A program made the translations under genes and the position numbers. Source: Candidatus Omnitrophica bacterium CG11_big_fil_rev_8_21_14_0_20_41_12 (GTDB lineage Bacteria; Omnitrophota; Gorgyraeia; Gygaellales; Profunditerraquicolaceae). Taken from it: a DNA stretch of 64,000 nucleotides. Under the pieces are notes generated by a model. It ran no database searches. It was not told the origin of the DNA and saw only the letters and a list, made by a program, of their open reading frames with translations. Location: assembly GCA_002796135.1 (NCBI GenBank), contig PCWB01000027.1, forward strand, positions 1,724 to 65,723, given 5' to 3'. Below, one piece after another: positions 1,843 to 56,081 of the stretch (within the stretch, counting starts at the first letter, position 1; each line of letters opens with the position of its first letter).

Positions 1843-3558
1843 CTATTCCTCGGTAGTAATCCTGATTGCCTCATCCAAAGTAGTCTGCTCTTCCCTAACT
1901 TTCAGAAAAGCATCATCGCGCAAAGTTTTCATACCTAATTTCTTAATTGCATAAGCCTTAATTTCATCTAAAGAATTTCTACGGATGATCATCTCTCTTA
2001 TGTTATCATCAATGAGCAGCGTTTCGAGCACCGCAACCCGTCCATAAAAACCGGTATTATTGCAATACTTACAACCCTGAGCAGCATAAAATGTGGTTTT
2101 GCCGCTACTAAAGCCTATTTGTTTAAGAAAATCTTCAGGAACCTCTATTGGTTTACGACATTTAAGACAAATTTTTCGCGCCAGCCGCTGCGCACAAAGC
2201 ATAATTACACTGGAAGCAACTAAAAATGGCTCCACCCCCATATCAATAAGGCGGGTAATGCTGGAAATCGCATCATTAGTATGCAAGGTAGAAAGTACGA
2301 GTTGGCCGGTTAATGCCGCTTTGATAGCGATATCGGCGGTTTCAGCGTCCCGGATCTCGCCGATCATAATTACATCCGGGCTTTGCCGCAAGATAGAACG
2401 CAATCCTGAAGCAAAATCTAAACCGATATCCGGCTTAACCTGCATCTGAGTAATTCCATCAACTTGATATTCTACCGGATCCTCGATAGTAATAATATTT
2501 TTTTCCGGAGTATTCAGCTGATTTAAAACAGAATAAAGCGTCGTGGATTTCCCTGAGCCGGTCGGCCCGGTAACCAGCATCATGCCAAAAGGCTTGGCCA
2601 CAGCTTTCTTAAAGTTAGTATCCGGCTGTTCGGAAAACCCCAATTTATCCAAGCCGATCGATAGATTACCTTTATCTAAAGCGCGCAAAACAAATTTCTG
2701 CCCGAAAGTCGTCGGAAGGCTGGAAACTCGAAAATCTATCTCCCGGCCTTCTGTTCTTACCTTAAATCTGCCATCTTGAGGAATGCGATTTTCAGTAATA
2801 TCCAGATTAGAAATAATTTTAAGTCTGGCTAAAATTGCATTTTGATTTATTTTCGGAACCTTTAAAATATCATGCAAGGAGCCGTCTACGCGATATCGAA
2901 TACGCAGACAATCAATCTCCGGCTCGATATGAATATCCGAAGCCCTTCTTTTTAAAGCTTGCGCTAATATAATATCGACTAGTTGCACAATGGGAGCCTT
3001 CTGGCTATCCTGAAGGGTGCCGCTCAACTCAATCGCATCAGCTTTAACCAGTTCTAAATTCTTTTCCAGATCTCCGACGTGACCCAGTGTTACTTCATCA
3101 AGGACACTCTGCATCTCCTTAACTTCTTTACGATATTGGCTATCAATAGCACGATTGATCTCATCCTCAGGGCTTACGACAATATCAATCTTACTTCCGG
3201 TAAAATTACCTAAATCATCTAACGCAAAAATATTTAACGGATCCGACATCGCCACAGTAAGGGTATTGCCGATTTTCGATAAAGGAATAGTATTATAAAG
3301 CTTGGCCATCTGCTCGGGAATCAAATTAACAATCTCGGTATCAAACCTGAATTTAGCCAAACGCAAAGAAGGCAGATAAAGCTGTTCTGAGAATAATGAA
3401 AGCAGGATCTCTTCCGTAATAATTCCTTCATCAATCAAAACTTTTCTTAAAGGCATCTCCTTCTCTTTTTGTAAACTTAAAGCCCGATCCAGCTGCTCTT
3501 TGGTAATATGGTTGCTCTTTAAAAGTATCTCGATTATATTTTCTCTTAATGAATGCAT
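1843..3558 (-). CDS. pilB: Type IV pilus assembly ATPase PilB / GspE family, copy 1
   Basis: N-terminal GSPII_E_N/MshEN-like domain, Walker A GPTGSGKSTT, and a C-terminal tetra-Cys zinc motif (CLKC...CKYC). Confidence 0.85.
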   Translation of the reverse strand: MHSLRENIIEILLKSNHITKEQLDRALSLQKEKEMPLRKVLIDEGIITEEILLSLFSEQLYLPSLRLAKFRFDTEIVNLIPEQMAKLYNTIPLSKIGNTLTVAMSDPLNIFALDDLGNFTGSKIDIVVSPEDEINRAIDSQYRKEVKEMQSVLDEVTLGHVGDLEKNLELVKADAIELSGTLQDSQKAPIVQLVDIILAQALKRRASDIHIEPEIDCLRIRYRVDGSLHDILKVPKINQNAILARLKIISNLDITENRIPQDGRFKVRTEGREIDFRVSSLPTTFGQKFVLRALDKGNLSIGLDKLGFSEQPDTNFKKAVAKPFGMMLVTGPTGSGKSTTLYSVLNQLNTPEKNIITIEDPVEYQVDGITQMQVKPDIGLDFASGLRSILRQSPDVIMIGEIRDAETADIAIKAALTGQLVLSTLHTNDAISSITRLIDMGVEPFLVASSVIMLCAQRLARKICLKCRKPIEVPEDFLKQIGFSSGKTTFYAAQGCKYCNNTGFYGRVAVLETLLIDDNIREMIIRRNSLDEIKAYAIKKLGMKTLRDDAFLKVREEQTTLDEAIRITTEE

Positions 3559-3563
3559 TATCG

Positions 3564-5279
3564 TTATTCGTCCGGTGCGGTTACCCGCAGGACCTCTGCG
3601 ATTGTGGTATGCCCGGCTAAAACAGCCCTAAGCCCATCCTCACGTAAAGTCTTCATACCCTCAAGGCGCGCTTGCTGCTTAATAAACTGCTCCTGCGAAC
3701 CGCTAAGGATTAACTCCCGAACCTTAGGGCTAACCTGTAAAACCTCGGCAATTACCGTTCTTCCGGAATAACCGCTATTAAAACAATGCTGGCAACCTTT
3801 GCCTTTATAGAATTTTAATTTATCAGTTCCTGCCGGCTTCAATTTCAAACTAGCAACAACTTCATCCTTAAGAACATATGCCTCCTTACAATAAGAACAG
3901 ACTTTGCGTACGAGGCGCTGTGCCATAACACAGACTAAAGAAGAGTTGATCAAATAAGGCTCAACTCCCATGTTCACTAAACGCACTACAGCACCGGCAG
4001 CGGTAGTCGTATGTAAAGTAGAAAGAACCAAATGTCCGGTAAGGGCACTTTTAATCGCGATATCCACAGTTTCATAATCACGTATTTCTCCGATCATAAT
4101 GACATTAGGATCCTGTCGTAAGATCGATCGGAGTGCTGCTGCAAAACTAAGACCAATCTCAGGCCTTGAAGTTACCTGATTGATGCCCTCCAGTTGAAAC
4201 TCAACCGGGTCCTCCACGGTAACAATATTTTTATCCGGGCTATCTACGGATTTTAGTACCGCATAAAGCGTCGTAGTTTTACCGCTCCCTGTCGGTCCAC
4301 AAACCAAAATCATACCATGAGGAAGCAGAGAAACTTTACGCAAAACCTCCAAAGCATAATCGCTAAAACCTAATTTCTTCATATCCAGATTTGCCTGCGA
4401 TTTATCCAGAATACGTAAAGCAACCTTCTCCCCGAAGCTGGATGGTAAAATAGAAACGCGGAAATCTATCTCACGATTAAGTATTTTAACCTTAAAACGC
4501 CCGTCTTGGGGGATACGGTGTTCGGCAATATCCAGCTGAGACATAACCTTAATACGTGATACTATCGACGGATGCATATTCTTTGACGGAGTCTTCTGCT
4601 CTTGAAGAATACCGTCAATGCGGAAACGTATGCGTAATTTTTTATCAAACGGCTCAACCAACACGTCAGAGGCCTTCTTTTTAATTGACTCCTCCAGAAT
4701 CATATTAACAACCTTGATCACCGGAGCCTCTTGGCTGATCCTGCCTAACTCCTGATCGCTAGGCAATATTTCCTTTTCCTCCTTAATTAATTCAATGGAA
4801 GAAACAGTCATTTCTTTAACCAAATCATCGATCAAGCCCTTAGTCGTATCAGGATAAGATAATTCTATGGCCTGAGTGATATCCTGAACCGGAGAAATGA
4901 TAGGATTAATTTTAAAACCAGTGAGCGACTGTACGTGGTCAATGGCAAATATATTCAATGGATCAGCCATCGCCAGAGTAATCGTATCTCCCATTTTTGA
5001 TATAGGGATGATCTGGTAATGCCGGGCAATTTCAACTGAAATTATTTTTACGATATCAAGATCGATCTTAAAACGTTTTAAATCAATTAAAGGCAAGCCC
5101 AACCCCTCGCTCAAAGCGGTGATTAACTCATTTCCCTTAACAAACTTAAGCTCTACAATAATATCGCTCAGCTTTCCCCCCTTAGTGGTTTGGACACTAA
5201 GTGCCTGCTTAAGCTGGTCTTCAGTAATAAGTTTATTATGGATTAATATTTCGGTGAGTCGGTCTTTAAGGGATAGCAT
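3564..5279 (-). CDS. Type IV pilus assembly ATPase PilB / GspE family, copy 2 (tandem paralog of identical length)
   Basis: Same architecture as copy 1: GSPII_E_N domain, Walker A GPTGSGKTTT, tetra-Cys CSYC...CQHC. It lies 5 nt upstream of copy 1. Confidence 0.85.
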   Translation of the reverse strand: MLSLKDRLTEILIHNKLITEDQLKQALSVQTTKGGKLSDIIVELKFVKGNELITALSEGLGLPLIDLKRFKIDLDIVKIISVEIARHYQIIPISKMGDTITLAMADPLNIFAIDHVQSLTGFKINPIISPVQDITQAIELSYPDTTKGLIDDLVKEMTVSSIELIKEEKEILPSDQELGRISQEAPVIKVVNMILEESIKKKASDVLVEPFDKKLRIRFRIDGILQEQKTPSKNMHPSIVSRIKVMSQLDIAEHRIPQDGRFKVKILNREIDFRVSILPSSFGEKVALRILDKSQANLDMKKLGFSDYALEVLRKVSLLPHGMILVCGPTGSGKTTTLYAVLKSVDSPDKNIVTVEDPVEFQLEGINQVTSRPEIGLSFAAALRSILRQDPNVIMIGEIRDYETVDIAIKSALTGHLVLSTLHTTTAAGAVVRLVNMGVEPYLINSSLVCVMAQRLVRKVCSYCKEAYVLKDEVVASLKLKPAGTDKLKFYKGKGCQHCFNSGYSGRTVIAEVLQVSPKVRELILSGSQEQFIKQQARLEGMKTLREDGLRAVLAGHTTIAEVLRVTAPDE

Positions 5280-7283: not shown

Positions 7284-9035
7284 TCATATATCAATAGATT
7301 TGTTGAATTCTGTCAACAGTCCTTCCTTGGCTACCCCGGTATCAATAAAATCCCAGGGCAACGCACAGGCAGTTGACTTGTCACCAAGATATGCCTGCGG
7401 ATCAATCCCCTCTTCAGAGAATGCTTCTTGCCACTTAGTAAATGAAAAATAATTCGACCAAGCATCAAACTTGGCCCCTTTTCTATAAGCAGTAAGGATG
7501 ACTTTACCCAGCTTTCTATCCCCCCTGGAAAGTATCCCTTCCAAAAAACTTATCTGTGAATTATGAAAACTGAATTTAAGCCTCCGGTTTTTACAATTTG
7601 ACCTTAAATAGTCCTGCTTTTCCTGGATTTGGGTAATTGAATCCATCTTTAACCATTGTAAAGGCGTATGGGGCTTGGGAATTAAGGGATTTACGCTGAT
7701 ATTAATTTGAGCTGCAGCTCCGCTGATTTCCCTTTTTAATTCCGAAGACCGTTTTGCAAAATCGATTATCCCCTGCAAATCTGCTTGAGTCTCCCCGGGT
7801 AAACCAATAAGAAAATATAACTTCAAATGCTGATAGCCGCATTTATAAGCATCGGCGATAGCTTTAAAAAACTCTTCTTCGGAAAAATCCTTAGCCAAAG
7901 CCTGGCGCAACCTGTGTGTTCCTGCCTCCGGAGCAAAAGTCAGGCCTGTCTTTTTTGCTTTGGCAATTAGTGTAGAAACATTGCCTAACAAAGCTTTAGC
8001 TTTTAACGAAGGCAGGGACAGGCTAACTCCCTGCTCTTTAAAATTTCCAGTTAAAGAAGAAACAAGGGCTTCTAAGTCAGGATAATCGCTTACGGATAAA
8101 CCCGCTAAAGATAATTCCTCATATCCGGTAGCCAGATAGGCAAGATTAGCCTGTGAAATTATTTTTTCTTTACTTTTTATTCTCAGAGGATAATATTGGC
8201 TCCTGGCCTGGCAAAAACGGCAGCGGTTAGGGCAACCGCGCATAATCTCTAAAGTAATCCGGTCATGTATCACCGGAACATTAGGCACCATCCAATTACA
8301 GGGAAAATATGACGATTCAAAATCAACGACTACCCGTTTTTTAATTTTTAAGGGCAAGCTATCGACCCTAGGATAAAAGGCGGCAAACTCTCCTGTAGCA
8401 TTATAATCTACTGAATACAAAGACGGCGCGTATACTCCTTCTATTTTAGTCAGCTCAATCAACAGTTTTTCTTTCGGCAGGCGGCCGCTTTTATAATCTT
8501 GCTTAAGACGCCGATATAAAACTAATAGCTCTACAATCGCCTCTTCTGCCTCACCGATAATAAATAAATCAATAAAATCAGCCATCGGCTCAGGATTAAG
8601 AGTAGCGGGGCCTCCGGCGATAACCAAAGGAAGTTTATGATCACGTAAGCAGGATTGTAGCGGCAGGCCGGCAAGATCTAAAATATTTAATACGTTAGTA
8701 TAATTTAATTCCGAACCAAGAGAGAAGCCCAACATATCAAAATTGATCAGCTCCTGATTTGATTCCCAGGAAAAAAGCCGCCTGTTGGCATTTTTTAAAG
8801 ATGCCTCCATGTCAGCTTCACAGGCAAAAAACCTTTCACAAACTACATCCTCAAGATTATTTAAAACGCCGTAGATGATACGCAAGCCTAAATTACTCAT
8901 CCCCACTTCATATAGATCAGGAAAACCTAAAGCAAAATTTATTAAAGCAGGATCGAAGTGTTTTTGGGATACATTCCATTCATTACCCAGATATTGTGCA
9001 GGGCGGTGCACATTTAAAAACAAATCTTCAATCAT
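7284..9035 (-). CDS. B12-binding-like/radical SAM domain protein (TIGR03960-like, uncharacterised)
   Basis: CxxxCxxC cluster motif in RGCPNRCRFCQ and a long N-terminal extension. It is 2 nt upstream-adjacent to rodA. Confidence 0.8.
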   Translation of the reverse strand: MIEDLFLNVHRPAQYLGNEWNVSQKHFDPALINFALGFPDLYEVGMSNLGLRIIYGVLNNLEDVVCERFFACEADMEASLKNANRRLFSWESNQELINFDMLGFSLGSELNYTNVLNILDLAGLPLQSCLRDHKLPLVIAGGPATLNPEPMADFIDLFIIGEAEEAIVELLVLYRRLKQDYKSGRLPKEKLLIELTKIEGVYAPSLYSVDYNATGEFAAFYPRVDSLPLKIKKRVVVDFESSYFPCNWMVPNVPVIHDRITLEIMRGCPNRCRFCQARSQYYPLRIKSKEKIISQANLAYLATGYEELSLAGLSVSDYPDLEALVSSLTGNFKEQGVSLSLPSLKAKALLGNVSTLIAKAKKTGLTFAPEAGTHRLRQALAKDFSEEEFFKAIADAYKCGYQHLKLYFLIGLPGETQADLQGIIDFAKRSSELKREISGAAAQINISVNPLIPKPHTPLQWLKMDSITQIQEKQDYLRSNCKNRRLKFSFHNSQISFLEGILSRGDRKLGKVILTAYRKGAKFDAWSNYFSFTKWQEAFSEEGIDPQAYLGDKSTACALPWDFIDTGVAKEGLLTEFNKSIDI

Positions 9036-49830: not shown

Positions 49831-50172
49831 TCATCTTAAAGATTTAACATATCTTGTAATCCTTCTGCCTAAAACTATTGCCACAAATAAAATAAATAAA
49901 TAACCCAAAATATGCGAAAATTTTGTTAAGATGATTACCAACAAAAGAAAAGTTAAAAAACCCAGCGCAAACAATAATCCCCTCTTCCAGCCTCCTCCGG
50001 TACAATAACCTCCAAAGAACATCATCAAACTAAGCGATAAAGGATAAGCAAGAACTGCCGGCTCATGAATAGAATCTCTAAAAGCACCCAATGTAAAAAA
50101 TACAGCCATACTGACAAACGCTCCAATGATACCGATAATGTAATTTTTATTACTTTTTACGGATCCAGGCAT
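49831..50172 (-). CDS. Small integral membrane protein (hypothetical)
   Basis: 113 aa with three predicted TM helices. AGGAGG-5nt-ATG RBS. It starts 22 nt downstream of tRNA-Pro. Confidence 0.4.
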   Translation of the reverse strand: MPGSVKSNKNYIIGIIGAFVSMAVFFTLGAFRDSIHEPAVLAYPLSLSLMMFFGGYCTGGGWKRGLLFALGFLTFLLLVIILTKFSHILGYLFILFVAIVLGRRITRYVKSLR

Positions 50173-50194: not shown

Positions 50195-50268
50195 TCGGGG
50201 CGGTGCGACTTGAACGCACGGCCTCTTGCTCCCGAAGCAAGCGCTCTACCAAACTGAGCCACGCCCCG
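50195..50268 (-). tRNA. tRNA-Pro (anticodon CGG); the 3' CCA is not encoded
   Basis: The reverse complement folds as a cloverleaf. The acceptor stem is CGGGGCG/CGCCCCG, with U8, a D-arm GCUC-AGUUUGGUA-GAGC, an anticodon stem CUUGC/GCAAG with loop UUCGGGA, a T-arm GUGCG-UUCAAGU-CGCAC, and discriminator A followed by UU rather than CCA. Confidence 0.85.
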
Positions 50269-50335: not shown

Positions 50336-51187
50336 CTAGACCTGCAGGCTATCAATAAGACGGGCCATAATAAAATCATTCTCAGTAAGGCCTCCGGCAA
50401 CAAATGTAGTCAGCGTGACCTTTAGCATGCTATAGACAATCATCATCATCGGATGATGCCCCTGCTCCTGGGCAATGATTGAGATTAAATCCAGAAAATA
50501 TTTGGCATCTACAAAATCCTTGAATTTAAATTCTTTAACCATTTTTCTAAAATCCGATGACTCCCAACCGGGATACTCCGGCAGTAATTTTTCTACTTTC
50601 TCCTTGGGCATCGCCGATACTACGCCTTTACAAGGTTGACATTCATAAATCAACTCTTCTTTAATCGGGCTAGCCGGACTTTTAATCACTGTTTCCAAAT
50701 TACTCAGTACTTCATCGTAATTTAGCGGCGCGGTTAACTCCGGGGCTATCTGCAAATAACGCAAAACGTTATTTTTATCTATAATCAAGGCCGCCCTGGC
50801 CAAGAGATTCAGCCCTTTGATCAATAAGCCGTAGTTTATCCCGAATGAAGAAGTTTTATAATCAGAAAAAACATGCACATCTTTTATATCAAAACTTTCA
50901 CAGAAACGCTGCTGCGCAAAAGGCAGGTCCTTACTGATCCCTAAAATCACCGCCTCCTGCGACAACCCGGCTGCCCTTTTATTAAACTCTTTTACCTGTA
51001 AATCACAAACCGGAGTATCCAGCGACGGGAATAAATTAATTACCTTGATCTTATTTTTAAAATCAACTAAACCTGTTTCTTTAAGGTCGTGAGAAAATAC
51101 CTTAAAATCCGGAGCAGGATCTCCTGGCTTCAAATTTCTTCCAACTAGAGTAAGCGGATTACCTTTAAAAGTTATGCTCCTGCCCAT
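50336..51187 (-). CDS. Fusion protein: thiol peroxidase (Tpx, atypical 2-Cys peroxiredoxin) fused to pterin-4a-carbinolamine dehydratase (PCD/DCoH)
   Basis: Residues 1 to about 170 align end-to-end with Tpx (FKGNPLTL...FPSLDTPVCDLQV...DLPFAQQRFC...). Residues from about 185 to 283 are a complete PCD domain (EYPGWESSDF...EFKFKDFVDAKYF...GHHPMMMIVYSMLKVTLTTFVAGGLTENDFIMARLID). The reading frame is continuous, with no internal stop. Confidence 0.8.
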   Translation of the reverse strand: MGRSITFKGNPLTLVGRNLKPGDPAPDFKVFSHDLKETGLVDFKNKIKVINLFPSLDTPVCDLQVKEFNKRAAGLSQEAVILGISKDLPFAQQRFCESFDIKDVHVFSDYKTSSFGINYGLLIKGLNLLARAALIIDKNNVLRYLQIAPELTAPLNYDEVLSNLETVIKSPASPIKEELIYECQPCKGVVSAMPKEKVEKLLPEYPGWESSDFRKMVKEFKFKDFVDAKYFLDLISIIAQEQGHHPMMMIVYSMLKVTLTTFVAGGLTENDFIMARLIDSLQV

Positions 51188-51217
51188 AAATACCTCCTTA
51201 AAAGTATTAATAAATTC

Positions 51218-51787
51218 TTAAGGTCTTTTAGCCAGCATATCGAACTCTACATTAAGCTTATCCGACGGGCCTTTAAAATTCAACGTAGTATTTTTAAGCG
51301 TATGCGGGATAATACAGACATTAAAAACATTTCCTCTGATTTTGGCTAAGGTCAAACTTATGCCATCCAGCGATATCGACCCCTTAGGCAAACAGTAGCG
51401 CAAAAATTCAGGCGGAACCGCAACTTCTAATTCCACGCTGCCGTTACGCAGTCCTCTCTTACGCACCAGGCCCAGGCAATCAACATGGCCGCTGACAAAA
51501 TGGCCGCTGACCCTGTCCCCGACCTTTAAACTGCGCTCAAGGTTGACTTTTTTACCGATGCTCAGTAATCCTAAATTAGTACTCTTAAATGTAGTATTCA
51601 TAACTTCAAATCTAAGCGAATTACTTCCAAGAGTCACAGCCGTCAGGCATACTCCGTTGACCGAAACACTGTCGCCGAGCTTAGTATCAATTAGAACTTC
51701 CTTGGCACTAATTTCCAAGGAAGTTACTCCTGCCTGATGCGTTATTTTTTTTACCTCTCCCAATTCTTCGACGATTCCGGTAAACAT
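51218..51787 (-). CDS. ribE: Riboflavin synthase alpha subunit
   Basis: MFTGIVEELGEV lumazine-binding repeat. Start set at the internal ATG 51787 (AAGGTG RBS), 1 nt after the ribD stop. Confidence 0.85.
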   Translation of the reverse strand: MFTGIVEELGEVKKITHQAGVTSLEISAKEVLIDTKLGDSVSVNGVCLTAVTLGSNSLRFEVMNTTFKSTNLGLLSIGKKVNLERSLKVGDRVSGHFVSGHVDCLGLVRKRGLRNGSVELEVAVPPEFLRYCLPKGSISLDGISLTLAKIRGNVFNVCIIPHTLKNTTLNFKGPSDKLNVEFDMLAKRP

Positions 51788-51788
51788 T

Positions 51789-52883
51789 TTATAGCACCTT
51801 CGCTGCAAATAAGAATTCCTGGCCAAACCGTTTTATTTTCAAATCACTTAATTTTATTGCCTGATCTACGCGTTTAACCCCAATACCCATGACCGAAGAA
51901 ACAGCGTCTTTGCCGCCGATTATCTTCGGACTGACAAAAAATAAAATTCTGTCTACAAGCTTCTCATCAAAAAGCGAGCCGATCAACGTACCGCCGCCTT
52001 CAACGATCATGTTAGTAATTTTCAATTGGGCAATTTTTTTAAGAGCATCGCGTAGATTAATCTGTCCGGATTTTTCTTTCACTTCAAGAATTTTAGCTTT
52101 TGCCGCCAGCCTTTTGCGATTCTCTGTCTCCTGGCCCGGGCGGCTTGGCAAAGTAATAATGATCACCTGAGAGTCATCTGAAAAAATATTGGAATCCTCA
52201 GGAGTACTTAAAGTGCTATCGACAATAAGCTTAATCAGTTTTTTCTTGGTAAACCAAGTGTTCAAGCGCGGATTATCCCGCAGCACAGTATTGACCCCCA
52301 CCATAATCGCATCATAATTCTCACGCAACTTATGCGCATAACTGCGCGATTTATCAGAAGTAATCCACTTTGAATCTCCGGTACGGGTAGCAATTCTGCC
52401 GTCTAATGACTGGCCGACCTTAACTGTAACAAACGGAATCCTGGCAGTAATATATTTTATGAAACTCTCATTAATTTCTTTTAACTGGCTCTCTAAAAAA
52501 CCTACCCTTACTTTAATATTATTCTGCTTAAGCAGCATAACCCCTCTTCCGTTATTCAAGGGGTTCGGATCATACATCCCGACAACCACCTCTTTAATCC
52601 CGCTTTCAATTATACGATTAACACAAGGCGGGGTGCACCCGGTATGCGCACAAGGTTCAAGGGTGACATATAAAGTAGCTCCTTTTGCTTTTTTCTTGGC
52701 TTGATCCAAAGCAAGGATCTCCGCATGGGCTAACCCAGCTTTAGCATGGAAACCTTGACCGATGATTTTGCCTCTCTTAACCACCAAGGCTCCGACCAAA
52801 GGATTAGGATAAGTTTTTCCTTTTGCCTTTAAAGCTAACTTTAAAGCCAGCCCCATATAGTCTGCGTCGGTTTTTTTAATCAT
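51789..52883 (-). CDS. ribD: Bifunctional diaminohydroxyphosphoribosylaminopyrimidine deaminase / 5-amino-6-(5-phosphoribosylamino)uracil reductase
   Basis: CMP/dCMP deaminase zinc motif HAEILAL...TLEPCAHTGCTPPC and a C-terminal RibD reductase domain. Confidence 0.9.
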   Translation of the reverse strand: MIKKTDADYMGLALKLALKAKGKTYPNPLVGALVVKRGKIIGQGFHAKAGLAHAEILALDQAKKKAKGATLYVTLEPCAHTGCTPPCVNRIIESGIKEVVVGMYDPNPLNNGRGVMLLKQNNIKVRVGFLESQLKEINESFIKYITARIPFVTVKVGQSLDGRIATRTGDSKWITSDKSRSYAHKLRENYDAIMVGVNTVLRDNPRLNTWFTKKKLIKLIVDSTLSTPEDSNIFSDDSQVIIITLPSRPGQETENRKRLAAKAKILEVKEKSGQINLRDALKKIAQLKITNMIVEGGGTLIGSLFDEKLVDRILFFVSPKIIGGKDAVSSVMGIGVKRVDQAIKLSDLKIKRFGQEFLFAAKVL

Positions 52884-53695
52884 TTTTTAGCTTCGCGAAG
52901 TTTTTCTACCAGCTCAAGTGGTATTTTAATCATCCCTAATTTTATATCCGGTTTAGCGTTGCCGTGAAAATCGCTTCCTCCGGTAACCAAAAGATTCAAC
53001 TGCTTAGCTAAATTTAGGTAAAAATTAACCATGGATTGTGAATGTTCAGTGTAATAAATTTCTATCCCGTCTAAACCATACCCGCTGAATTCAGTGATCA
53101 GCTCGTCGTTATGCAAAATATAAGGATGCGCTAGTACTGCCAGGCCGCCGGCATCATGGATCATCTTGATTGCATCCGGGACCGTAAGATAAAAACCTAA
53201 AACATAAGCCGGGGACTTATCTCCGATATATTTACGAAATGCCTCCTGAATAGTTCTTACATTACCTTCTTGAACTAATGCCCTGGCGATATGCATCCTG
53301 CCTACCGTAGATTTTCCGGAGATCTTAAAAACAGCATCGGCATTAAGCTCAACTCCCAACCCTTTTAAATTTTCTATAATTTTATGTACCCGTTCAATGC
53401 GATTGGCCTGTAATAATTTTAATTTCTCTCGCAGCGTAGCATTGCGATAATCCATAAAATATCCCAGGATATGGATCTCCAGCCCTTCATGCTGGGCAGT
53501 CAATTCAATCCCGGGAATTATCTCTAAATCCGTGTCTTTGGCCGCCTCGATTGCTTCCTCAATCGCATCCAGCGTATCATGGTCAACAATGGCAATTGCC
53601 GAAAGATTGCGCTTAAGGCCTTCTTTGACTAATTGCGCAGGGGTATATGTACCGTCGCTGGCCAAAGTATGTACATGTAAATCAGCGAATTTCAT
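52880..53695 (-). CDS. PHP-domain phosphoesterase (TrpH/YciV-like)
   Basis: N-terminal DLHVHTLASDG followed by the His/Asp metal ligands of the PHP fold. It is embedded in the rib operon between nusB and ribD. Confidence 0.75.
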   Translation of the reverse strand: MKFADLHVHTLASDGTYTPAQLVKEGLKRNLSAIAIVDHDTLDAIEEAIEAAKDTDLEIIPGIELTAQHEGLEIHILGYFMDYRNATLREKLKLLQANRIERVHKIIENLKGLGVELNADAVFKISGKSTVGRMHIARALVQEGNVRTIQEAFRKYIGDKSPAYVLGFYLTVPDAIKMIHDAGGLAVLAHPYILHNDELITEFSGYGLDGIEIYYTEHSQSMVNFYLNLAKQLNLLVTGGSDFHGNAKPDIKLGMIKIPLELVEKLREAKK

Positions 53696-54108
53696 TTTTC
53701 TTTCTCAATTTTTACCTGATCCAAAATAGCATTTACAAACTTCCCAGATTCAATGCCGGAATATTTCTTAGCCAGCTCTACCGCCTCGTTAATTGCCACC
53801 TTAGGCGGAATATCCTGCCGGTACAGCAATTCAAAACATCCCAGGCGCATGATATTGCGATCAACAAAAGCCATGCGTTCAAGTTGCCAGTTAGCCGCAT
53901 ACTTGCTGATCTTTTTATCGATATCCTCCAGATGCCCGACTACTCCGCCAAGTAATTCCGTGGAAAAGTCTTTGGAGTCTGCGGCAGTATCATCCAGCTT
54001 ATTGCTTTGCCAGAAACTTTCGAAAACTTCCTTCCAGTCTCCCCGGGTGATATCTACCTGATAAAGCATCTGCAATACATATTCACGTGCTTTAGTCCGT
54101 TTACGCAT
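53692..54108 (-). CDS. nusB: Transcription antitermination factor NusB
   Basis: RTKAREYVLQMLYQVDI N-terminus. Shows the common ribH-nusB linkage. Confidence 0.9.
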   Translation of the reverse strand: MRKRTKAREYVLQMLYQVDITRGDWKEVFESFWQSNKLDDTAADSKDFSTELLGGVVGHLEDIDKKISKYAANWQLERMAFVDRNIMRLGCFELLYRQDIPPKVAINEAVELAKKYSGIESGKFVNAILDQVKIEKEK

Positions 54109-54112
54109 AGGT

Positions 54113-54580
54113 TTATTTTAATTGTCCGGATAAGCTAACCATCTCAATAGCTGACAAAGCGGCATCTCTACCTTTGTTACCGTCTTTAGAGCCTGCGCGC
54201 TCCACTGCCTGCTCGATACTATCGGCGGTAATTATACCAAAGATGACCGGTATTCCGCTATCTAAAGAAACTTTAGCAACCCCTTTAGCTGCTTCCGAAG
54301 CAATATAATCAAAATGCGGAGTTGCTCCGCGGATAACCGTACCTAAACAAATCAAAGCGTCAAAAGATTTGGTTTTAGCCATCTTCTGAGCAACCAGCGG
54401 AACCTCAAATGCGCCGGGAACCCAGGCTACCGTAATATCCTTATCTTCTGCTCCGTGCCGGACTAAAGTATCAATACAACCACTGACTAACTCTTTAGTC
54501 ATGAAATCATTGAAACGTGAAGCCACCAAACCAAAGGTTTGGCCTTTTGCCAACAGCTTGCCTTCAATTACCTTTGCCAT
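54113..54580 (-). CDS. ribH: 6,7-dimethyl-8-ribityllumazine synthase
   Basis: Lumazine synthase fold ([10 protein letters not shown]...[10 protein letters not shown]). Confidence 0.9.
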
Positions 54581-54594
54581 CTTTCCTCCTTGTG

Positions 54595-55803
54595 TTAGAG
54601 ATCTAGATAATGCCCTAGTTTCTCTTTTTTTGTTTTTAAATATTTATAATTCTGAGCGCCGGGTTTAATCTCTAACGATATGCGCTCGGCAACCTCTAAG
54701 CCATAACCTTCTAAACCTACGATCTTACGCGGATTATTCGTTAATAACTTTATTTTTTTAACTCCCAAATCAACCAGGATCTGAGCTCCGATGCCGTAAT
54801 CACGCAAATCAGCTTTATGCCCCAAGGCTTCATTGGCCTGAACAGTATCCATTCCCTGATCCTGAAGATTATACGCACGTATCTTTTCAACTAAGCCGAT
54901 ACCCCGGCCCTCCTGATTCATATAAAGGATTATGCCTTTTTTCTCGCCTCCGATGATCTCCATCGCTTTTTCTAATTGATGCCCGCAATCACAGCGTAGC
55001 GAACCAAAGACATCTCCGGTTAAACACTCCGAATGAACGCGCACCAATATTGACTCATCCGACCAGCTGCCCATACACAAAGCAATATGCGTTTGGGCGT
55101 TGGTTTTGTCGCGGTAAATAATTAATTTAAATTCTCCGAATTTTGTAGGTAATATTGTCTGAACCACTACTTCGACTAATTTTTCCCTCCTGCGGCGGTA
55201 TTCGATCAGGCTGGCAATCGAACAAATTTTTAAAGCGTGCTTTTTAGAAAATTCCAGAAGTTGCGGCAGGCGAGCCATTGAACCATCGTCATTCATAATC
55301 TCGCAAATTACTCCCGCCGAATAAAGCCCACAAAGACGCATTAAATCCAGGCTTGCCTCAGTATGCCCGGCGCGCACCAATACTCCACCGAGGCGCGAGC
55401 GTAGAGGAAAAACATGCCCCGGACGAATTAAGTCCTCAGGCTTGGTTTTAAGATTAGTTAAGATTTCAATTGTCTTGGCCCGATCAGCCGCAGAGATCCC
55501 CGTGCTTATCGAGCGCGCCGCATCAACCGAGATCATCCAGGCAGTCTTAAAAGGATCCTCCTTAGTCGCCGCCAGAGTATTTTTAAGCATTGGATCAAGC
55601 TCCAAAAAACGCAACCTCTCCTCTTCCATCGGAACACAGATCAGCCCCCGGCCGAATTTAGCCATAAAGTTTATATCTTCCGGCTTGGCACTTGAGGCAG
55701 CCATGATTAAATCACCTTCATTTTCGCGGTCTTCATCATCAACCACGATAACCATTTTGCCTGCTTTTAAATCTTCTAAAATTTCCGGTATTGAATTAAA
55801 CAT
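54595..55803 (-). CDS. ribBA: Bifunctional 3,4-dihydroxy-2-butanone-4-phosphate synthase / GTP cyclohydrolase II
   Basis: N-terminal DHBP synthase domain ([11 protein letters not shown]) and a C-terminal GCH-II zinc site (CxxGHxxxxxC type). Confidence 0.9.
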
Positions 55804-55810
55804 AAGCCCC

Positions 55811-56081
55811 TGTAAAAAATAAGCCCAAAAAGATAATCCTCGGGCATCGTAATTTTAATCTTCTTCCATCTGGACTTTCTCATACGCTTTTACACCCCGC
55901 GTTTATAAGATATTACGCGGGTGTTCGTTCGTACGAACCATCGGCCCTGGAATCTCACCAGATCTGCCTAGCACATTGTTTAAGCACCCAGCGCTAAATT
56001 GCATTGCGCTGGTGCCTGCTCGTGCAGGGCTCGCGGGCTAAACCGCCGGTAAGGAATTTCACCTTGCCCTAAAGATTAATT
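55811..56081 (-). promoter_or_regulatory. FMN riboswitch (RFN element) with a terminator-type expression platform, leader of the rib operon
   Basis: The reverse complement contains the RFN cores GGGCAAGGUGAAAUUCCUUACCGGCGGU, AGCCCGCGAGC and GAUCUGGUGAGAUUCCAGGGCCGAUGGU, plus the 3' strand GUCCAGAUGGAAGAAGAU. An extra inserted hairpin (CACCCCGCG...CGCGGGGUG) is present. A hairpin GCCCGAGGAUUAUCUUUUUGGGC followed by UUAUUUUUU lies just before the ribBA RBS. Confidence 0.8.

What the first reader, a model, noticed from the sequence alone, without database searches (positions are those of the whole stretch)
50336..51187. Single polypeptide fusing thiol peroxidase (Tpx) to pterin-4a-carbinolamine dehydratase (PCD)
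Residues 1 to about 170 are a complete Tpx with the peroxidatic Cys (SLDTPVC) and resolving Cys (RFC). After a short linker containing CQPC, residues from about 185 to 283 are a complete PCD/DCoH domain (EFKFKDFVDAKYF, GHHP...LTTFVAGGLTENDF). This fusion is not a commonly described architecture. It sits at the tail of the riboflavin (pterin-type chemistry) operon. One hypothesis is that Tpx reduces a 4a-hydroperoxy-tetrahydropterin (the autoxidation product of reduced pterins) to the 4a-carbinolamine, which the fused PCD then dehydrates to quinonoid dihydropterin. That would be a dedicated pterin-peroxide detoxification and salvage enzyme.
Basis: partly seen in the sequence, partly recalled or inferred. 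Interest (0 to 1): 0.7.

Follow-up and report, generated by a model that had tools for sequence, protein, structure and literature searches.

The report
Thiol peroxidase fused to pterin dehydratase
This gene really does encode one protein joining a peroxide-destroying enzyme (Tpx) to a pterin dehydratase-type domain; the fusion recurs mainly in the uncultured anaerobic phylum Omnitrophota, normally sits among oxygen-defence genes rather than vitamin B2 genes, and hints that "orphan" pterin dehydratases deal with oxidative damage.

Summary
Window 50336..51187 (minus strand) is an uninterrupted 283-aa ORF with a canonical Tpx (CP C61, CR C96; NCBIfam equivalog 171.8 bits vs cutoff 123) followed by a full-length Pterin_4a domain (80 bits vs 26). 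It is not an assembly artefact: all 120 best database hits, from independent assemblies, share the architecture, mostly from Omnitrophota and named only "thiol peroxidase". No paper in the searched library describes it.

Three parts of the reading need correction.
- CQPC is not a linker. It is the native N-terminal CxxC of a large standalone PCD subfamily.
- Riboflavin-operon adjacency is specific to this lineage. In 20 of 30 fused loci the gene lies in an anaerobe O2/ROS-defence island, with no recurrent pterin, folate or Moco neighbour.
- This copy departs from the PCD signature (E240Q, H262F), although dN/dS is about 0.11 for both halves.

Close Tpx-only orthologues occupy the same island, so the PCD module is accessory.

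Most likely this is a thioredoxin-dependent peroxidase of the oxidative-stress regulon carrying a CxxC-PCD module that handles oxidised reduced pterins. Direct pterin-hydroperoxide channelling is unexcluded and unsupported. It is a new variant of known kinds, of moderate interest.

The parts
50336..51187 (-). Complete tpx-PCD fusion gene: 283 codons plus stop
   Evidence: ORF listing and sequence. Pfam and NCBIfam domain calls. All 120 best hits have the same architecture.
51193..51199 (-). Shine-Dalgarno sequence AAGGAGG, 5 nt upstream of the ATG
   Evidence: Read directly from the sequence.
50678..51187 (-). Tpx (atypical 2-Cys peroxiredoxin) domain, residues 1-170
   Evidence: NF001808 thiol peroxidase equivalog scores 171.8 bits against a cutoff of 123. 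It aligns end to end with B. subtilis and Aquifex Tpx. The AF2 model superposes on solved Tpx structures with TMt 0.84-0.94.
51005..51007 (-). Peroxidatic Cys C61, in PSLDTPVC
   Evidence: Invariant in 121 of 121 family members. Aligned with CP of solved Tpx.
50900..50902 (-). Resolving Cys C96, in QRFC
   Evidence: Invariant in 121 of 121. Aligned with CR of solved Tpx.
50642..50677 (-). True interdomain linker, residues 171-182
   Evidence: Variable in the family apart from P171, L179 and P180. AF2 pLDDT is about 74-75 over residues 171-190.
50630..50641 (-). C183-Q-P-C186, the N-terminal CxxC of the PCD subfamily (not a linker)
   Evidence: Both Cys are invariant in 121 of 121. The same motif occurs in 70 of 83 standalone-size PCD representatives and 114 of 119 relatives of standalone P0131. 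NCBIfam PCD models align from residue 182.
50345..50611 (-). Pterin_4a (PCD/DCoH fold) domain, residues 193-281
   Evidence: PF01329 scores 80.2 bits and covers profile positions 3-91 of 91. It aligns with solved PCD/DCoH structures.
50450..50458 (-). H244-H245-P246, the conserved PCD active-site His pair
   Evidence: H244 and H245 are invariant in 121 of 121. They align with the HHP of DCoH2 and 2ebb.
50402..50404 (-). F262, at the position of the third active-site His
   Evidence: The family has His in 112 of 121, Phe in 6 (the query and P0001-P0005) and Tyr in 3. The position aligns with His in DCoH2 and with Trp in Geobacillus PCD 2ebb.
51218..55803 (-). Upstream riboflavin operon: ribBA, ribH, nusB, PHP-domain gene, ribD, ribE. 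This is context only in this lineage.
   Evidence: ORFs. Pfam labels come from the syntenic locus L007.
55854..56080 (-). FMN riboswitch upstream of ribBA
   Evidence: Rfam RF00050 scores 90.4 bits against a gathering score of 66.2.
50195..50268 (-). tRNA-Pro (CGG), 67 nt downstream of the fusion gene on the same strand
   Evidence: ARAGORN and Rfam.

Best explanation
The gene encodes a two-domain oxidative-stress enzyme typical of Omnitrophota.

The N-terminal half is a fully canonical thioredoxin-dependent atypical 2-Cys thiol peroxidase. CP C61 attacks ROOH or H2O2, CR C96 forms the intramolecular disulfide, and a thioredoxin or glutaredoxin system re-reduces it.

The C-terminal half is a CxxC-type bacterial PCD (COG2154, PhhB-like) module that was fused once to the Tpx of the anaerobe O2/ROS-defence island.

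I infer that in most of the family the module still binds and dehydrates 4a-hydroxy-tetrahydropterin-type species, the products of oxidising reduced pterins when an anaerobe meets oxygen. On that view it is a damage-control activity co-delivered with the peroxidase, not an obligate second step on the peroxidase's product.

In this window's own subclade the third active-site His is Phe (and Glu-240 is Gln), yet the domain remains under strong constraint. Its dehydratase activity here is uncertain and may be altered.

What is shown: the architecture, its recurrence, residue conservation, genomic context and selection. What is inferred: the Tpx chemistry (by homology) and the role of the PCD module.
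For: - Domains and catalytic residues.
- Recurrence of the architecture in independent assemblies.
- Conservation in the 121-member family: T58, C61, C96, R131, C183, C186, H244, H245 and D271 are invariant, and H262 is His in 112 of 121. 97 of 121 members match the recalled PCD activity signature.
- Equal purifying selection on the two halves: dN/dS 0.116 and 0.112.
- AF2 model with pLDDT 87.9 and pTM 0.84, which suggests a defined two-domain arrangement.
- Context. In 30 fused loci the recurrent neighbours are an FNR-like reductase (11 loci), desulfoferrodoxin (10), flavodiiron protein (10), DJ-1/PfpI (9, of which 8 are immediately downstream), hybrid-cluster protein (6), ferritin (6), rubrerythrin (6), glutaredoxin (6), a PNPOx-like protein (6) and TrxR (3). 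20 of 30 loci have at least one of these.
- Further N-terminal fusions to rhodanese and rubrerythrin keep the redox theme.
- Retention of the His-His pocket argues for ligand binding or catalysis rather than a bare scaffold.
Against: - No recurrent neighbour cluster in the fused loci, and no gene annotated in the four standalone-PCD contexts, is a pterin, folate, Moco or aromatic amino acid hydroxylase gene.
- A clade of Tpx-only orthologues sits in the same island without PCD, so the module is dispensable.
- Some divergent fused proteins have lost the PCD His residues and others the Tpx Cys residues.
- The window's copy fails the recalled PCD signature (Q240, F262) and scores below every NCBIfam PCD equivalog cutoff.
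- The role of the invariant CxxC is unexplained.
- No biochemical data exist for any member.
Confidence: 0.55

Rival explanations
1. Coupled pterin-peroxide salvage. Tpx reduces a 4a-hydroperoxy-tetrahydropterin to the 4a-carbinolamine, and the fused PCD dehydrates it to quinonoid dihydropterin. In an extended version the adjacent CxxC reduces that product back to the tetrahydropterin.
For: - Both active sites are conserved together in the main family.
- pTM of 0.84 suggests a fixed arrangement of the two domains.
- Selection is equal on the two halves.
- From general knowledge, Tpx enzymes prefer organic hydroperoxides.
- The invariant CxxC lies next to the PCD domain.
- The two reactions would be consecutive chemically.
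Against: - No recurrent pterin, folate or Moco neighbour.
- The rib-operon adjacency is lineage-specific.
- Tpx-only orthologues occupy the same island.
- P0134 keeps an intact PCD with a dead Tpx. P0135, P0147 and P0252 keep CP with a degraded PCD pocket.
- The CxxC predates the fusion, since it occurs in standalone PCDs.
- This copy has F262 and Q240.
- From general knowledge, free 4a-hydroperoxypterins are transient.
- Nothing in the searched literature supports the reaction.
Confidence: 0.12
2. The PCD-like domain is non-catalytic here. It would act as an oligomerisation, scaffold or partner-binding module, as DCoH binds HNF1 and as the plant RAF2 and carboxysomal acRAF PCD-like proteins act in Rubisco assembly. 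Its role would be to change the quaternary state or the partners of the Tpx.
For: - In the window's subclade the third His is Phe and A263 is Val, yet dN/dS stays at 0.11. That means the fold is constrained even without the canonical pocket.
- Several divergent fused proteins have lost His residues but keep the domain.
- From general knowledge, both Tpx and bacterial PCD are homodimers, so a fusion could build higher-order assemblies.
- The module is dispensable in a related clade.
Against: - H244 and H245 are invariant, H262 is His in 112 of 121, and D271 and GGLTxND are invariant. A mere scaffold would not be expected to keep these.
- From memory, non-catalytic PCD-like proteins have lost these residues.
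- Trp occupies the third-His position in a protein deposited as a PCD (2ebb), so Phe may be tolerated.
Confidence: 0.2
3. The CxxC-PCD module is a built-in redox relay. The C183/C186 dithiol would reduce the Tpx CP-CR disulfide or the CP sulfenate, and would itself be recycled by glutaredoxin or TrxR. This would be analogous to Prx-Grx hybrid peroxiredoxins.
For: - The CxxC is invariant in 121 of 121.
- The four divergent fused representatives that lost CR (P0129, P0145, P0153, P0252) all keep the CxxC.
- Glutaredoxin and TrxR genes recur in the island.
- Rhodanese, another Cys-based domain, is added at the N-terminus in some forms.
Against: - The CxxC is a feature of standalone PCDs with no peroxiredoxin attached.
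- It is not in a thioredoxin fold.
- The sample of CR-less proteins is four, and P0145 is a singleton.
- The conserved His pocket is left unexplained.
Confidence: 0.1
4. Assembly or annotation artefact: a missed stop or frameshift, or a chimeric join of two adjacent genes.
For: None found. One GTDB locus (L041) does show the fusion split into two tblastn segments, so occasional frameshifts or sequencing errors occur in this family.
Against: The reading frame is uninterrupted. All 120 best hits, from four independent data sources, have the same 281-301 aa fusion. So do about 24 GTDB species representatives, including complete chromosomes.
Confidence: 0.01

Closest known systems
Tpx (thiol peroxidase, p20/scavengase; atypical 2-Cys peroxiredoxin; e.g. 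E. coli Tpx 3hvs, B. subtilis 2jsy, Aquifex 2yzh)
   Same: The N-terminal 170 residues match end to end at 36-46% identity. CP sits in the PxxxTxxC motif, CR is 35 residues later, and the Arg is conserved. The predicted fold matches solved Tpx with TMt 0.84-0.94.
   Different: All solved Tpx chains matched here are single-domain proteins of about 150-200 residues. This protein carries an extra 113 residues: a linker plus a CxxC-PCD module. No solved structure spans both domains.
Bacterial pterin-4a-carbinolamine dehydratase (PhhB, COG2154, PF01329), CxxC-bearing subfamily
   Same: The Pterin_4a domain is full length. It has the N-terminal C-x-P-C, the HHP, the aromatic residue after 5 positions, and GGLTxND.
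   Different: It is fused behind a peroxiredoxin rather than standing alone at about 110 aa. In this copy Phe replaces the third His and Gln replaces the Glu four residues before HHP. All NCBIfam equivalog scores are below cutoff. No hydroxylase partner gene lies nearby.
Hybrid peroxiredoxins with a fused redox partner (Prx-Grx such as Haemophilus PGdx); recalled, not tested
   Same: A peroxiredoxin with a C-terminal extra domain that carries a CxxC.
   Different: The extra domain here has the PCD/DCoH alpha-beta fold, not a thioredoxin fold. Its CxxC pre-exists in standalone PCDs.
Non-catalytic PCD-like proteins (plant RAF2/SDIRIP1, alpha-carboxysome acRAF) and DCoH as a dimerisation cofactor; recalled, with RAF2 cited in PMC5972614
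   Same: These show that the PCD fold can be used as a protein-binding module. This copy has a partly eroded catalytic signature.
   Different: The His-His pair and GGLTxND are fully retained here. There is no Rubisco or HNF1-type partner context.

Membership tests
Tpx subfamily of peroxiredoxins | Scores above the curated cutoff of the NCBIfam thiol peroxidase equivalog | tested here: met
   NF001808 scores 171.8 bits against a cutoff of 123, covering residues 4-164 and profile positions 3-165 of 167.
Tpx subfamily of peroxiredoxins | Peroxidatic Cys in a PxxxTxxC motif, with the conserved active-site Arg | tested here: met
   P54-S-L-D-T58-P-V-C61 and R131. T58, C61 and R131 are invariant in 121 of 121 and aligned to solved Tpx.
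Tpx subfamily of peroxiredoxins | Resolving Cys about 34-35 residues after CP (atypical 2-Cys mechanism) | tested here: met
   C96 in RFC is invariant in 121 of 121 and aligns with CR of B. subtilis and Aquifex Tpx.
Tpx subfamily of peroxiredoxins | Tpx fold | tested here: met
   The AF2 model compared with PDB Tpx chains gives TMt 0.84-0.94 and rmsd 1.6-2.5 A over 162-170 columns.
Tpx subfamily of peroxiredoxins | Thioredoxin-dependent hydroperoxide reduction | not testable with these tools
   This needs an enzyme assay. TrxR and Grx genes recur in relatives' islands but none was found in the annotated parts of this window.
Pterin-4a-carbinolamine dehydratase (PF01329, COG2154) | Pfam Pterin_4a domain above the gathering score, at full length | tested here: met
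   80.2 bits against 26, covering profile positions 3-91 of 91.
Pterin-4a-carbinolamine dehydratase (PF01329, COG2154) | NCBIfam 4a-hydroxytetrahydrobiopterin dehydratase equivalog cutoffs | tested here: not met
   The scores are 77.7 (cutoff 137), 69.3 (80), 67 (108), 61.1 (146) and 61 (133).
Pterin-4a-carbinolamine dehydratase (PF01329, COG2154) | Activity signature [EDKH]-x3-H-[HN]-[PCS]-x5,6-[YWF]-x9-[HW]-x8,15-D. This is recalled from Naponelli et al. 2008; the paper is not held in the library. | tested here: not met
   The query fails because of Q240 and F262. 97 of 121 family members match. His-262 is present in 112 of 121, and Phe only in the query and P0001-P0005.
Pterin-4a-carbinolamine dehydratase (PF01329, COG2154) | Dehydration of 4a-hydroxy-tetrahydropterin | not testable with these tools
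   This needs complementation or an in vitro assay.
Pterin-4a-carbinolamine dehydratase (PF01329, COG2154) | A pterin-dependent hydroxylase or Moco-gene partner in the genome or neighbourhood | tested here: inconclusive
   None appears among the recurrent neighbour clusters of the fused loci, in the four standalone-PCD loci or in the annotated parts of the window. Whole genomes could not be scanned.
Hybrid Prx-redoxin fusions (Prx-Grx type) | The fused partner domain is a thioredoxin-fold redoxin whose CxxC reduces the Prx | tested here: not met
   The only domain C-terminal to Tpx is Pterin_4a. The CxxC is the native N-terminus of standalone PCDs. Whether it exchanges electrons with Tpx was not testable.
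Non-catalytic PCD-like proteins (RAF2/acRAF type) | Loss of the catalytic His residues with the fold retained | tested here: inconclusive
   H244 and H245 are retained (121 of 121), while the third His is Phe in this subclade. The domain is still under dN/dS 0.11.

The most novel reading that the evidence does not exclude
The fusion would be a Rosetta-stone link showing that 'partnerless' CxxC-type PCDs are oxidative-damage enzymes for reduced pterins. These PCDs are widespread in Omnitrophota, CPR bacteria and DPANN archaea.

In the strongest version, Tpx-PCD is a self-contained pterin-peroxide salvage machine with three steps:
1. Tpx reduces a 4a-hydroperoxy-tetrahydropterin or folate adduct.
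2. The PCD pocket dehydrates the carbinolamine.
3. The adjacent CxxC dithiol reduces the quinonoid dihydropterin back to the tetrahydro form.

Thioredoxin or glutaredoxin would pay for both disulfides.
Probability: 0.12. Interest if true: 0.8.

Novelty: new variant of a known kind. Interest (0 to 1): 0.5.

Why it matters
From memory of Naponelli et al. 2008, which I could not re-read here, PCD/COG2154 proteins occur in many organisms that lack any pterin-dependent aromatic amino acid hydroxylase. Their role there has been open since that study. PMC3223725 records only 'a role in Moco metabolism'.

This work adds two leads to that question. First, there is a conserved fusion of a CxxC-type PCD to the Tpx of the anaerobe oxygen-defence island, with further rhodanese and rubrerythrin additions. 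That is independent comparative evidence tying this PCD subtype to peroxide and redox stress. Second, it supplies a concrete protein to test, together with natural variants: His-262 versus Phe-262 forms, Tpx-dead forms, PCD-dead forms and unfused forms.

The finding also flags a systematic annotation gap. Every fused hit that carries a source name is called a peroxidase ('thiol peroxidase', 'lipid hydroperoxide peroxidase' or 'thioredoxin-dependent peroxiredoxin') with the second domain unmentioned, apart from one divergent member named 'hypothetical protein'.

If the PCD half proves to be only a structural module, the finding is a modest addition to the list of peroxiredoxin fusions.

Tried and rejected
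- Artefact or frameshift: rejected, because the architecture recurs in independent assemblies.
- 'CQPC linker' as an invention of the fusion: rejected, because the motif is common in standalone PCDs.
- Riboflavin-operon linkage as a functional clue: rejected as lineage-specific, although co-transcription in this genome is plausible.
- Foldseek against AFDB50, to list UniProt entries with the same two-domain fold: the library was unavailable. The PDB search returned only single-domain Tpx chains.
- Reading Naponelli et al. 2008 to verify the PCD signature: the paper is not held, so the motif is quoted from memory.
- Searching for a clade with a 1-Cys Tpx and an intact CxxC-PCD, using P0145, to test the redox-relay idea: P0145 is a singleton with its nearest relative at 47% identity. 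This was uninformative.
- Contexts of four standalone CxxC-PCDs (Omnitrophica, Woesearchaeota, Levyibacteriota and one unnamed contig): heterogeneous, with no pterin or consistent redox neighbours.
- Literature searches for the fusion, for a CxxC role in PCD, and for peroxidase action on 4a-hydroperoxypterins: nothing relevant.
- The first bootstrap script timed out. It was redone with faster distances.
- Model coordinates are not exposed, so distances between C61, the CxxC and the His pocket could not be measured.
Full report
**1. Observation**

The window has an uninterrupted 283-codon ORF at 50336..51187 on the minus strand, with an ATG start. An AAGGAGG ribosome-binding site lies 5 nt upstream.

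Pfam finds Redoxin (residues 20-160, 75.8 bits), AhpC-TSA (21-144, 68.3 bits) and a full-length Pterin_4a domain (193-281, profile positions 3-91 of 91, 80.2 bits against a cutoff of 26). The NCBIfam thiol-peroxidase equivalog NF001808 scores 171.8 bits against a cutoff of 123. All five PCD equivalog models hit but stay below their cutoffs; the best ratio is 69.3 against 80.

The N-terminal half aligns end to end with B. subtilis Tpx (2jsy) and Aquifex Tpx (2yzh). The alignment includes SLDTPVC (C61, peroxidatic) and RFC (C96, resolving). The C-terminal half aligns with solved PCD/DCoH structures (2ebb, DCoH2 1ru0/4wil, Toxoplasma 2v6s, rat DCoH 1dch).

**2. Not an artefact, and not rare**

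A search of 5.8 billion proteins returned 3404 hits. All 120 best hits have the same Redoxin + Pterin_4a architecture at 281-301 aa and 62-99% identity. They come from ENA, NCBI, JGI and Logan assemblies. Where a source names them, they are called 'thiol peroxidase', 'lipid hydroperoxide peroxidase' or 'thioredoxin-dependent peroxiredoxin', mostly from Candidatus Omnitrophica/Omnitrophota. The PCD half never appears in the name.

An exhaustive HMMER scan of 1.84 billion 50%-identity representatives with residues 176-283 found further, more divergent fused clusters: P0124, P0129, P0133, P0134, P0135, P0136, P0145, P0147 and P0252.

A scan of GTDB species representatives found about 24 full-length fused loci. 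Most are labelled Omnitrophota. Others are labelled Planctomycetales or Planctomycetia (TPA MAGs), Chlamydiota, Gammaproteobacteria, Spirochaetota and Patescibacteria. Cluster look-ups add a Spirochaetales MAG and a Gammaproteobacteria MAG. MAG taxonomic labels should be treated with caution.

Six literature searches found no description of the fusion.

**3. Anatomy and conservation**

In a 121-sequence family alignment these residues are invariant:
- Tpx half: T58, C61, C96 and R131.
- CxxC: C183 and C186.
- PCD half: W208, H244, H245, G266, L267, N270 and D271.

His-262 is present in 112 of 121 sequences. About half of the columns are at least 85% conserved in each half: 88 of 170 for Tpx and 55 of 101 for PCD.

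The AF2 model built from this alignment is confident, with mean pLDDT 87.9 and pTM 0.84. Confidence dips at the CP loop (51-70), the CR region (91-100) and residues 171-190. A pTM this high for a two-domain chain suggests a defined arrangement of the domains, but I could not inspect coordinates. No solved structure covers both domains; the best alignments span no more than about 170 columns with TMq no higher than 0.55.

**4. The 'CQPC linker' is the PCD's own N-terminus**

The NCBIfam PCD models already align from residue 182. Among the 150 best PCD representatives, 113 carry C-x-x-C (mostly C-[VI]-P-C) 40-75 residues upstream of the HHP motif. That includes 70 of the 83 proteins of standalone size, 100-135 aa. 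Of 119 relatives of the standalone P0131, 114 have it.

The true linker is residues 171-182. What the CxxC does in any PCD is, as far as I could find, undescribed.

**5. This copy's PCD pocket is eroded but constrained**

Phe-262 aligns with the third active-site His of DCoH2 (TLTSH). It also aligns with Trp in the Geobacillus protein deposited as a PCD, 2ebb (KLSSW).

The activity signature I recall from Naponelli et al. 2008 is [EDKH]-x3-H-[HN]-[PCS]-x5,6-[YWF]-x9-[HW]-x8,15-D. The paper is not held in the library. The signature is matched by 97 of 121 family members but not by the query, because of Q240 and F262.

H262F and A263V are shared by the query and its five nearest relatives (P0001-P0005). 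N253S and K254M are shared only with P0001 and P0002. Positions 253 and 254 vary in the wider family and so matter less.

The query departs from consensus at 6 of 55 conserved PCD columns and at 2 of 88 conserved Tpx columns (Fisher p = 0.055). Yet dN/dS between the window and its closest relative with DNA (L007, 82% identity) is 0.116 for the Tpx half and 0.112 for the PCD half. The domain is still doing something that matters, even if canonical dehydratase activity in this lineage is uncertain.

**6. Genomic context**

In the window the gene follows ribE after 30 nt on the same strand. No terminator-like or promoter-like site lies between them. An FMN riboswitch sits upstream of ribBA (RF00050, 90.4 bits). 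Co-transcription with the rib operon is therefore plausible here.

That adjacency is not conserved. In L007 the same rib-nusB-PHP-ribD-ribE block and the same downstream genes (acylphosphatase, ligA and others) are present, but Flavodoxin_2 and the two subunits of a 2-oxoacid:ferredoxin oxidoreductase lie between ribE and the fusion gene.

I analysed 30 fused loci by ORF calling, clustering of neighbours within five genes, and Pfam annotation of the cluster representatives. The recurrent neighbours, nearly all on the same strand as the fusion gene, are:

| Neighbour | Loci |
|---|---|
| FNR-like NAD-binding reductase | 11 |
| Desulfoferrodoxin (superoxide reductase) | 10 |
| Flavodiiron protein | 10 |
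| DJ-1/PfpI | 9 (8 immediately downstream) |
| Hybrid-cluster protein | 6 |
| Ferritin | 6 (5 immediately upstream) |
| PNPOx-like protein | 6 |
| Rubrerythrin | 6 |
| Glutaredoxin | 6 |
| POR alpha/beta | 4 |
| Thioredoxin reductase | 3 |
| Flavin-reductase-rubredoxin | 3 |

Rrf2 or Fur regulators also appear. Twenty of the 30 loci carry at least one of these genes. rib genes occur only in the window and L007. No recurrent neighbour cluster is a pterin, folate, Moco or aromatic amino acid hydroxylase gene. The annotated parts of the window itself are housekeeping.

**7. The PCD module is accessory**

Six loci labelled Omnitrophota or Planctomycetales (L035-L040) encode a Tpx of 170-185 aa that is about 60% identical to the query's Tpx half. 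None has a PCD within the fetched flanks. Each lies in the same island: HCP, SOR, (ferritin), rubredoxin, Tpx, FNR-like, FDP, PNPOx-like, Grx, TrxR.

In NJ trees of the Tpx domain with 100 bootstrap replicates:
- These six form a clade in 100 of 100 replicates.
- Together with all fused proteins they are separated from other Tpx sequences in 100 of 100 replicates.
- The fused proteins alone are monophyletic in only 28 of 100 replicates.

A single origin of the fusion followed by one secondary loss is therefore favoured. A sister relationship, meaning gain after the split, is not excluded.

Divergent fused representatives show mosaic decay:
- P0134 has lost T58, C61, C96 and R131 but keeps a perfect PCD.
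- P0135, P0147 and P0252 keep CP but have degraded His pockets.
- P0136 has lost both active sites.
- P0129, P0145, P0153 and P0252 have lost only the resolving Cys and keep the CxxC.

The two active sites can therefore be lost independently, which argues against obligate coupling.

**8. Other architectures**

The Tpx-PCD core also occurs as Rhodanese-Tpx-PCD (P0126, P0153, and loci L029 and L033, labelled Gammaproteobacteria) and as Rubrerythrin-Tpx-PCD (P0143, where the Rubrerythrin score is just below its cutoff).

CxxC-PCDs are also fused to tRNA_bind, MazG, GST_N and RF-1 domains, and occur as 2x and 4x tandems. The nearest standalone relatives come from Omnitrophica, Patescibacteria (Levyibacteriota) and Woesearchaeota. 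Their contexts are heterogeneous. The Omnitrophica copy is followed by a gene with only weak Rubrerythrin and faint Ferritin hits.

**9. Interpretation**

Shown:
- A canonical Tpx is fused to a CxxC-type PCD domain.
- The fusion is conserved, selected on both halves, and embedded in the anaerobe O2/ROS-defence regulon.

Inferred, by homology with high confidence: the Tpx half is a thioredoxin- or glutaredoxin-dependent hydroperoxide reductase.

Inferred, with moderate confidence: the PCD half in most of the family retains a pterin-type pocket and dehydratase chemistry. Its rationale would be damage control for reduced pterins oxidised when the cell meets oxygen. It would be co-delivered with the peroxidase, not acting strictly on the peroxidase's product.

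It gains nothing from context, and the separability of the two halves weakens it. Two further rivals remain live, particularly for this window's Phe-262 copy: a non-catalytic scaffold role and a CxxC redox-relay role.

**10. Novelty and score**

Both domains belong to well-known families, and the proteins are already in public databases under incomplete names. The architecture, its distribution, its island context and its natural variants appear not to have been described. I rate it a new variant of a known kind, with interest 0.5.

The main value is a testable lead on the long-standing question of what 'partnerless' COG2154/PCD proteins do in organisms that lack pterin-dependent hydroxylases.

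Noticed in passing
window 55854..56080 (-): An FMN riboswitch (RF00050, 90.4 bits) lies upstream of ribBA. The rib operon here also contains nusB and a PHP-domain gene between ribH and ribD, and the same order is seen in L007.
   Followed up: partly
P0126, P0153; L029 around 7630..8835; L033 around 7550..8834: A three-domain Rhodanese-Tpx-PCD form occurs in MAGs labelled Gammaproteobacteria (e.g. OGT07178.1, named 'lipid hydroperoxide peroxidase'). A Rubrerythrin-Tpx-PCD form also exists (P0143, 439 aa; Rubrerythrin at 22.6 bits, just under its cutoff of 22.8).
   Followed up: partly
P0132, P0183, P0229, P0222, P0195, P0148, P0121: There are other unusual PCD architectures: PCD-tRNA_bind, PCD-MazG, PCD-GST_N, RF-1(ArfB-like)-PCD, and tandem 2x and 4x PCD repeats. 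The 4x form is 554 aa.
   Followed up: no
P0131 relatives; L092-L095: Standalone CxxC-type PCDs are common in Omnitrophica, CPR/Patescibacteria (Levyibacteriota) and Woesearchaeota. From memory, these small-genome lineages are not expected to have pterin-dependent hydroxylases. The four gene contexts examined gave no consistent clue.
   Followed up: partly
P0134 (MBD3246075.1, Omnitrophica): This fused protein has lost all four Tpx catalytic residues (T58, C61, C96, R131) while its CxxC-PCD half is fully canonical. It is named 'hypothetical protein'.
   Followed up: no
window 50813..50815 (-), residue 125: The query alone has Gly where 120 of 121 family members have Glu (LIKELNLLAR). Even the 99%-identical P0001 keeps Glu.
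   Followed up: no
L035 8001..8558: This Tpx-only orthologue ends in ...SPAVIRKPWGGCVCGK. The tail might be a remnant of the linker and CxxC region after loss of the PCD domain.
   Followed up: no
L041 7133..7967: The fusion gene in this Omnitrophota MAG matches in separate tblastn segments (Tpx 1-127, Tpx 134-169, then PCD). That suggests a frameshift, a pseudogene or a sequencing error.
   Followed up: no
window 1843..3558, 3564..5279, 10135..11850 (all -): There are three ORFs of exactly 571 aa. The first is a T2SSE/MshEN-type secretion or pilus ATPase (438 bits). The other two were not annotated but may be paralogues. A GGDEF-GAF-HAMP protein and an HD-domain response regulator lie nearby.
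   Followed up: partly
L001, L007, L008, L015: Genes for the two subunits of a 2-oxoacid:ferredoxin oxidoreductase (POR alpha and beta) recur next to the fusion gene. They lie immediately upstream in L007 and L015. This may have been the ancestral position in the window's subclade before the window's lineage lost them.
   Followed up: partly
window 49831..50172 (-): A 113-aa predicted membrane protein with no Pfam match lies between tRNA-Pro and the acylphosphatase gene.
   Followed up: no
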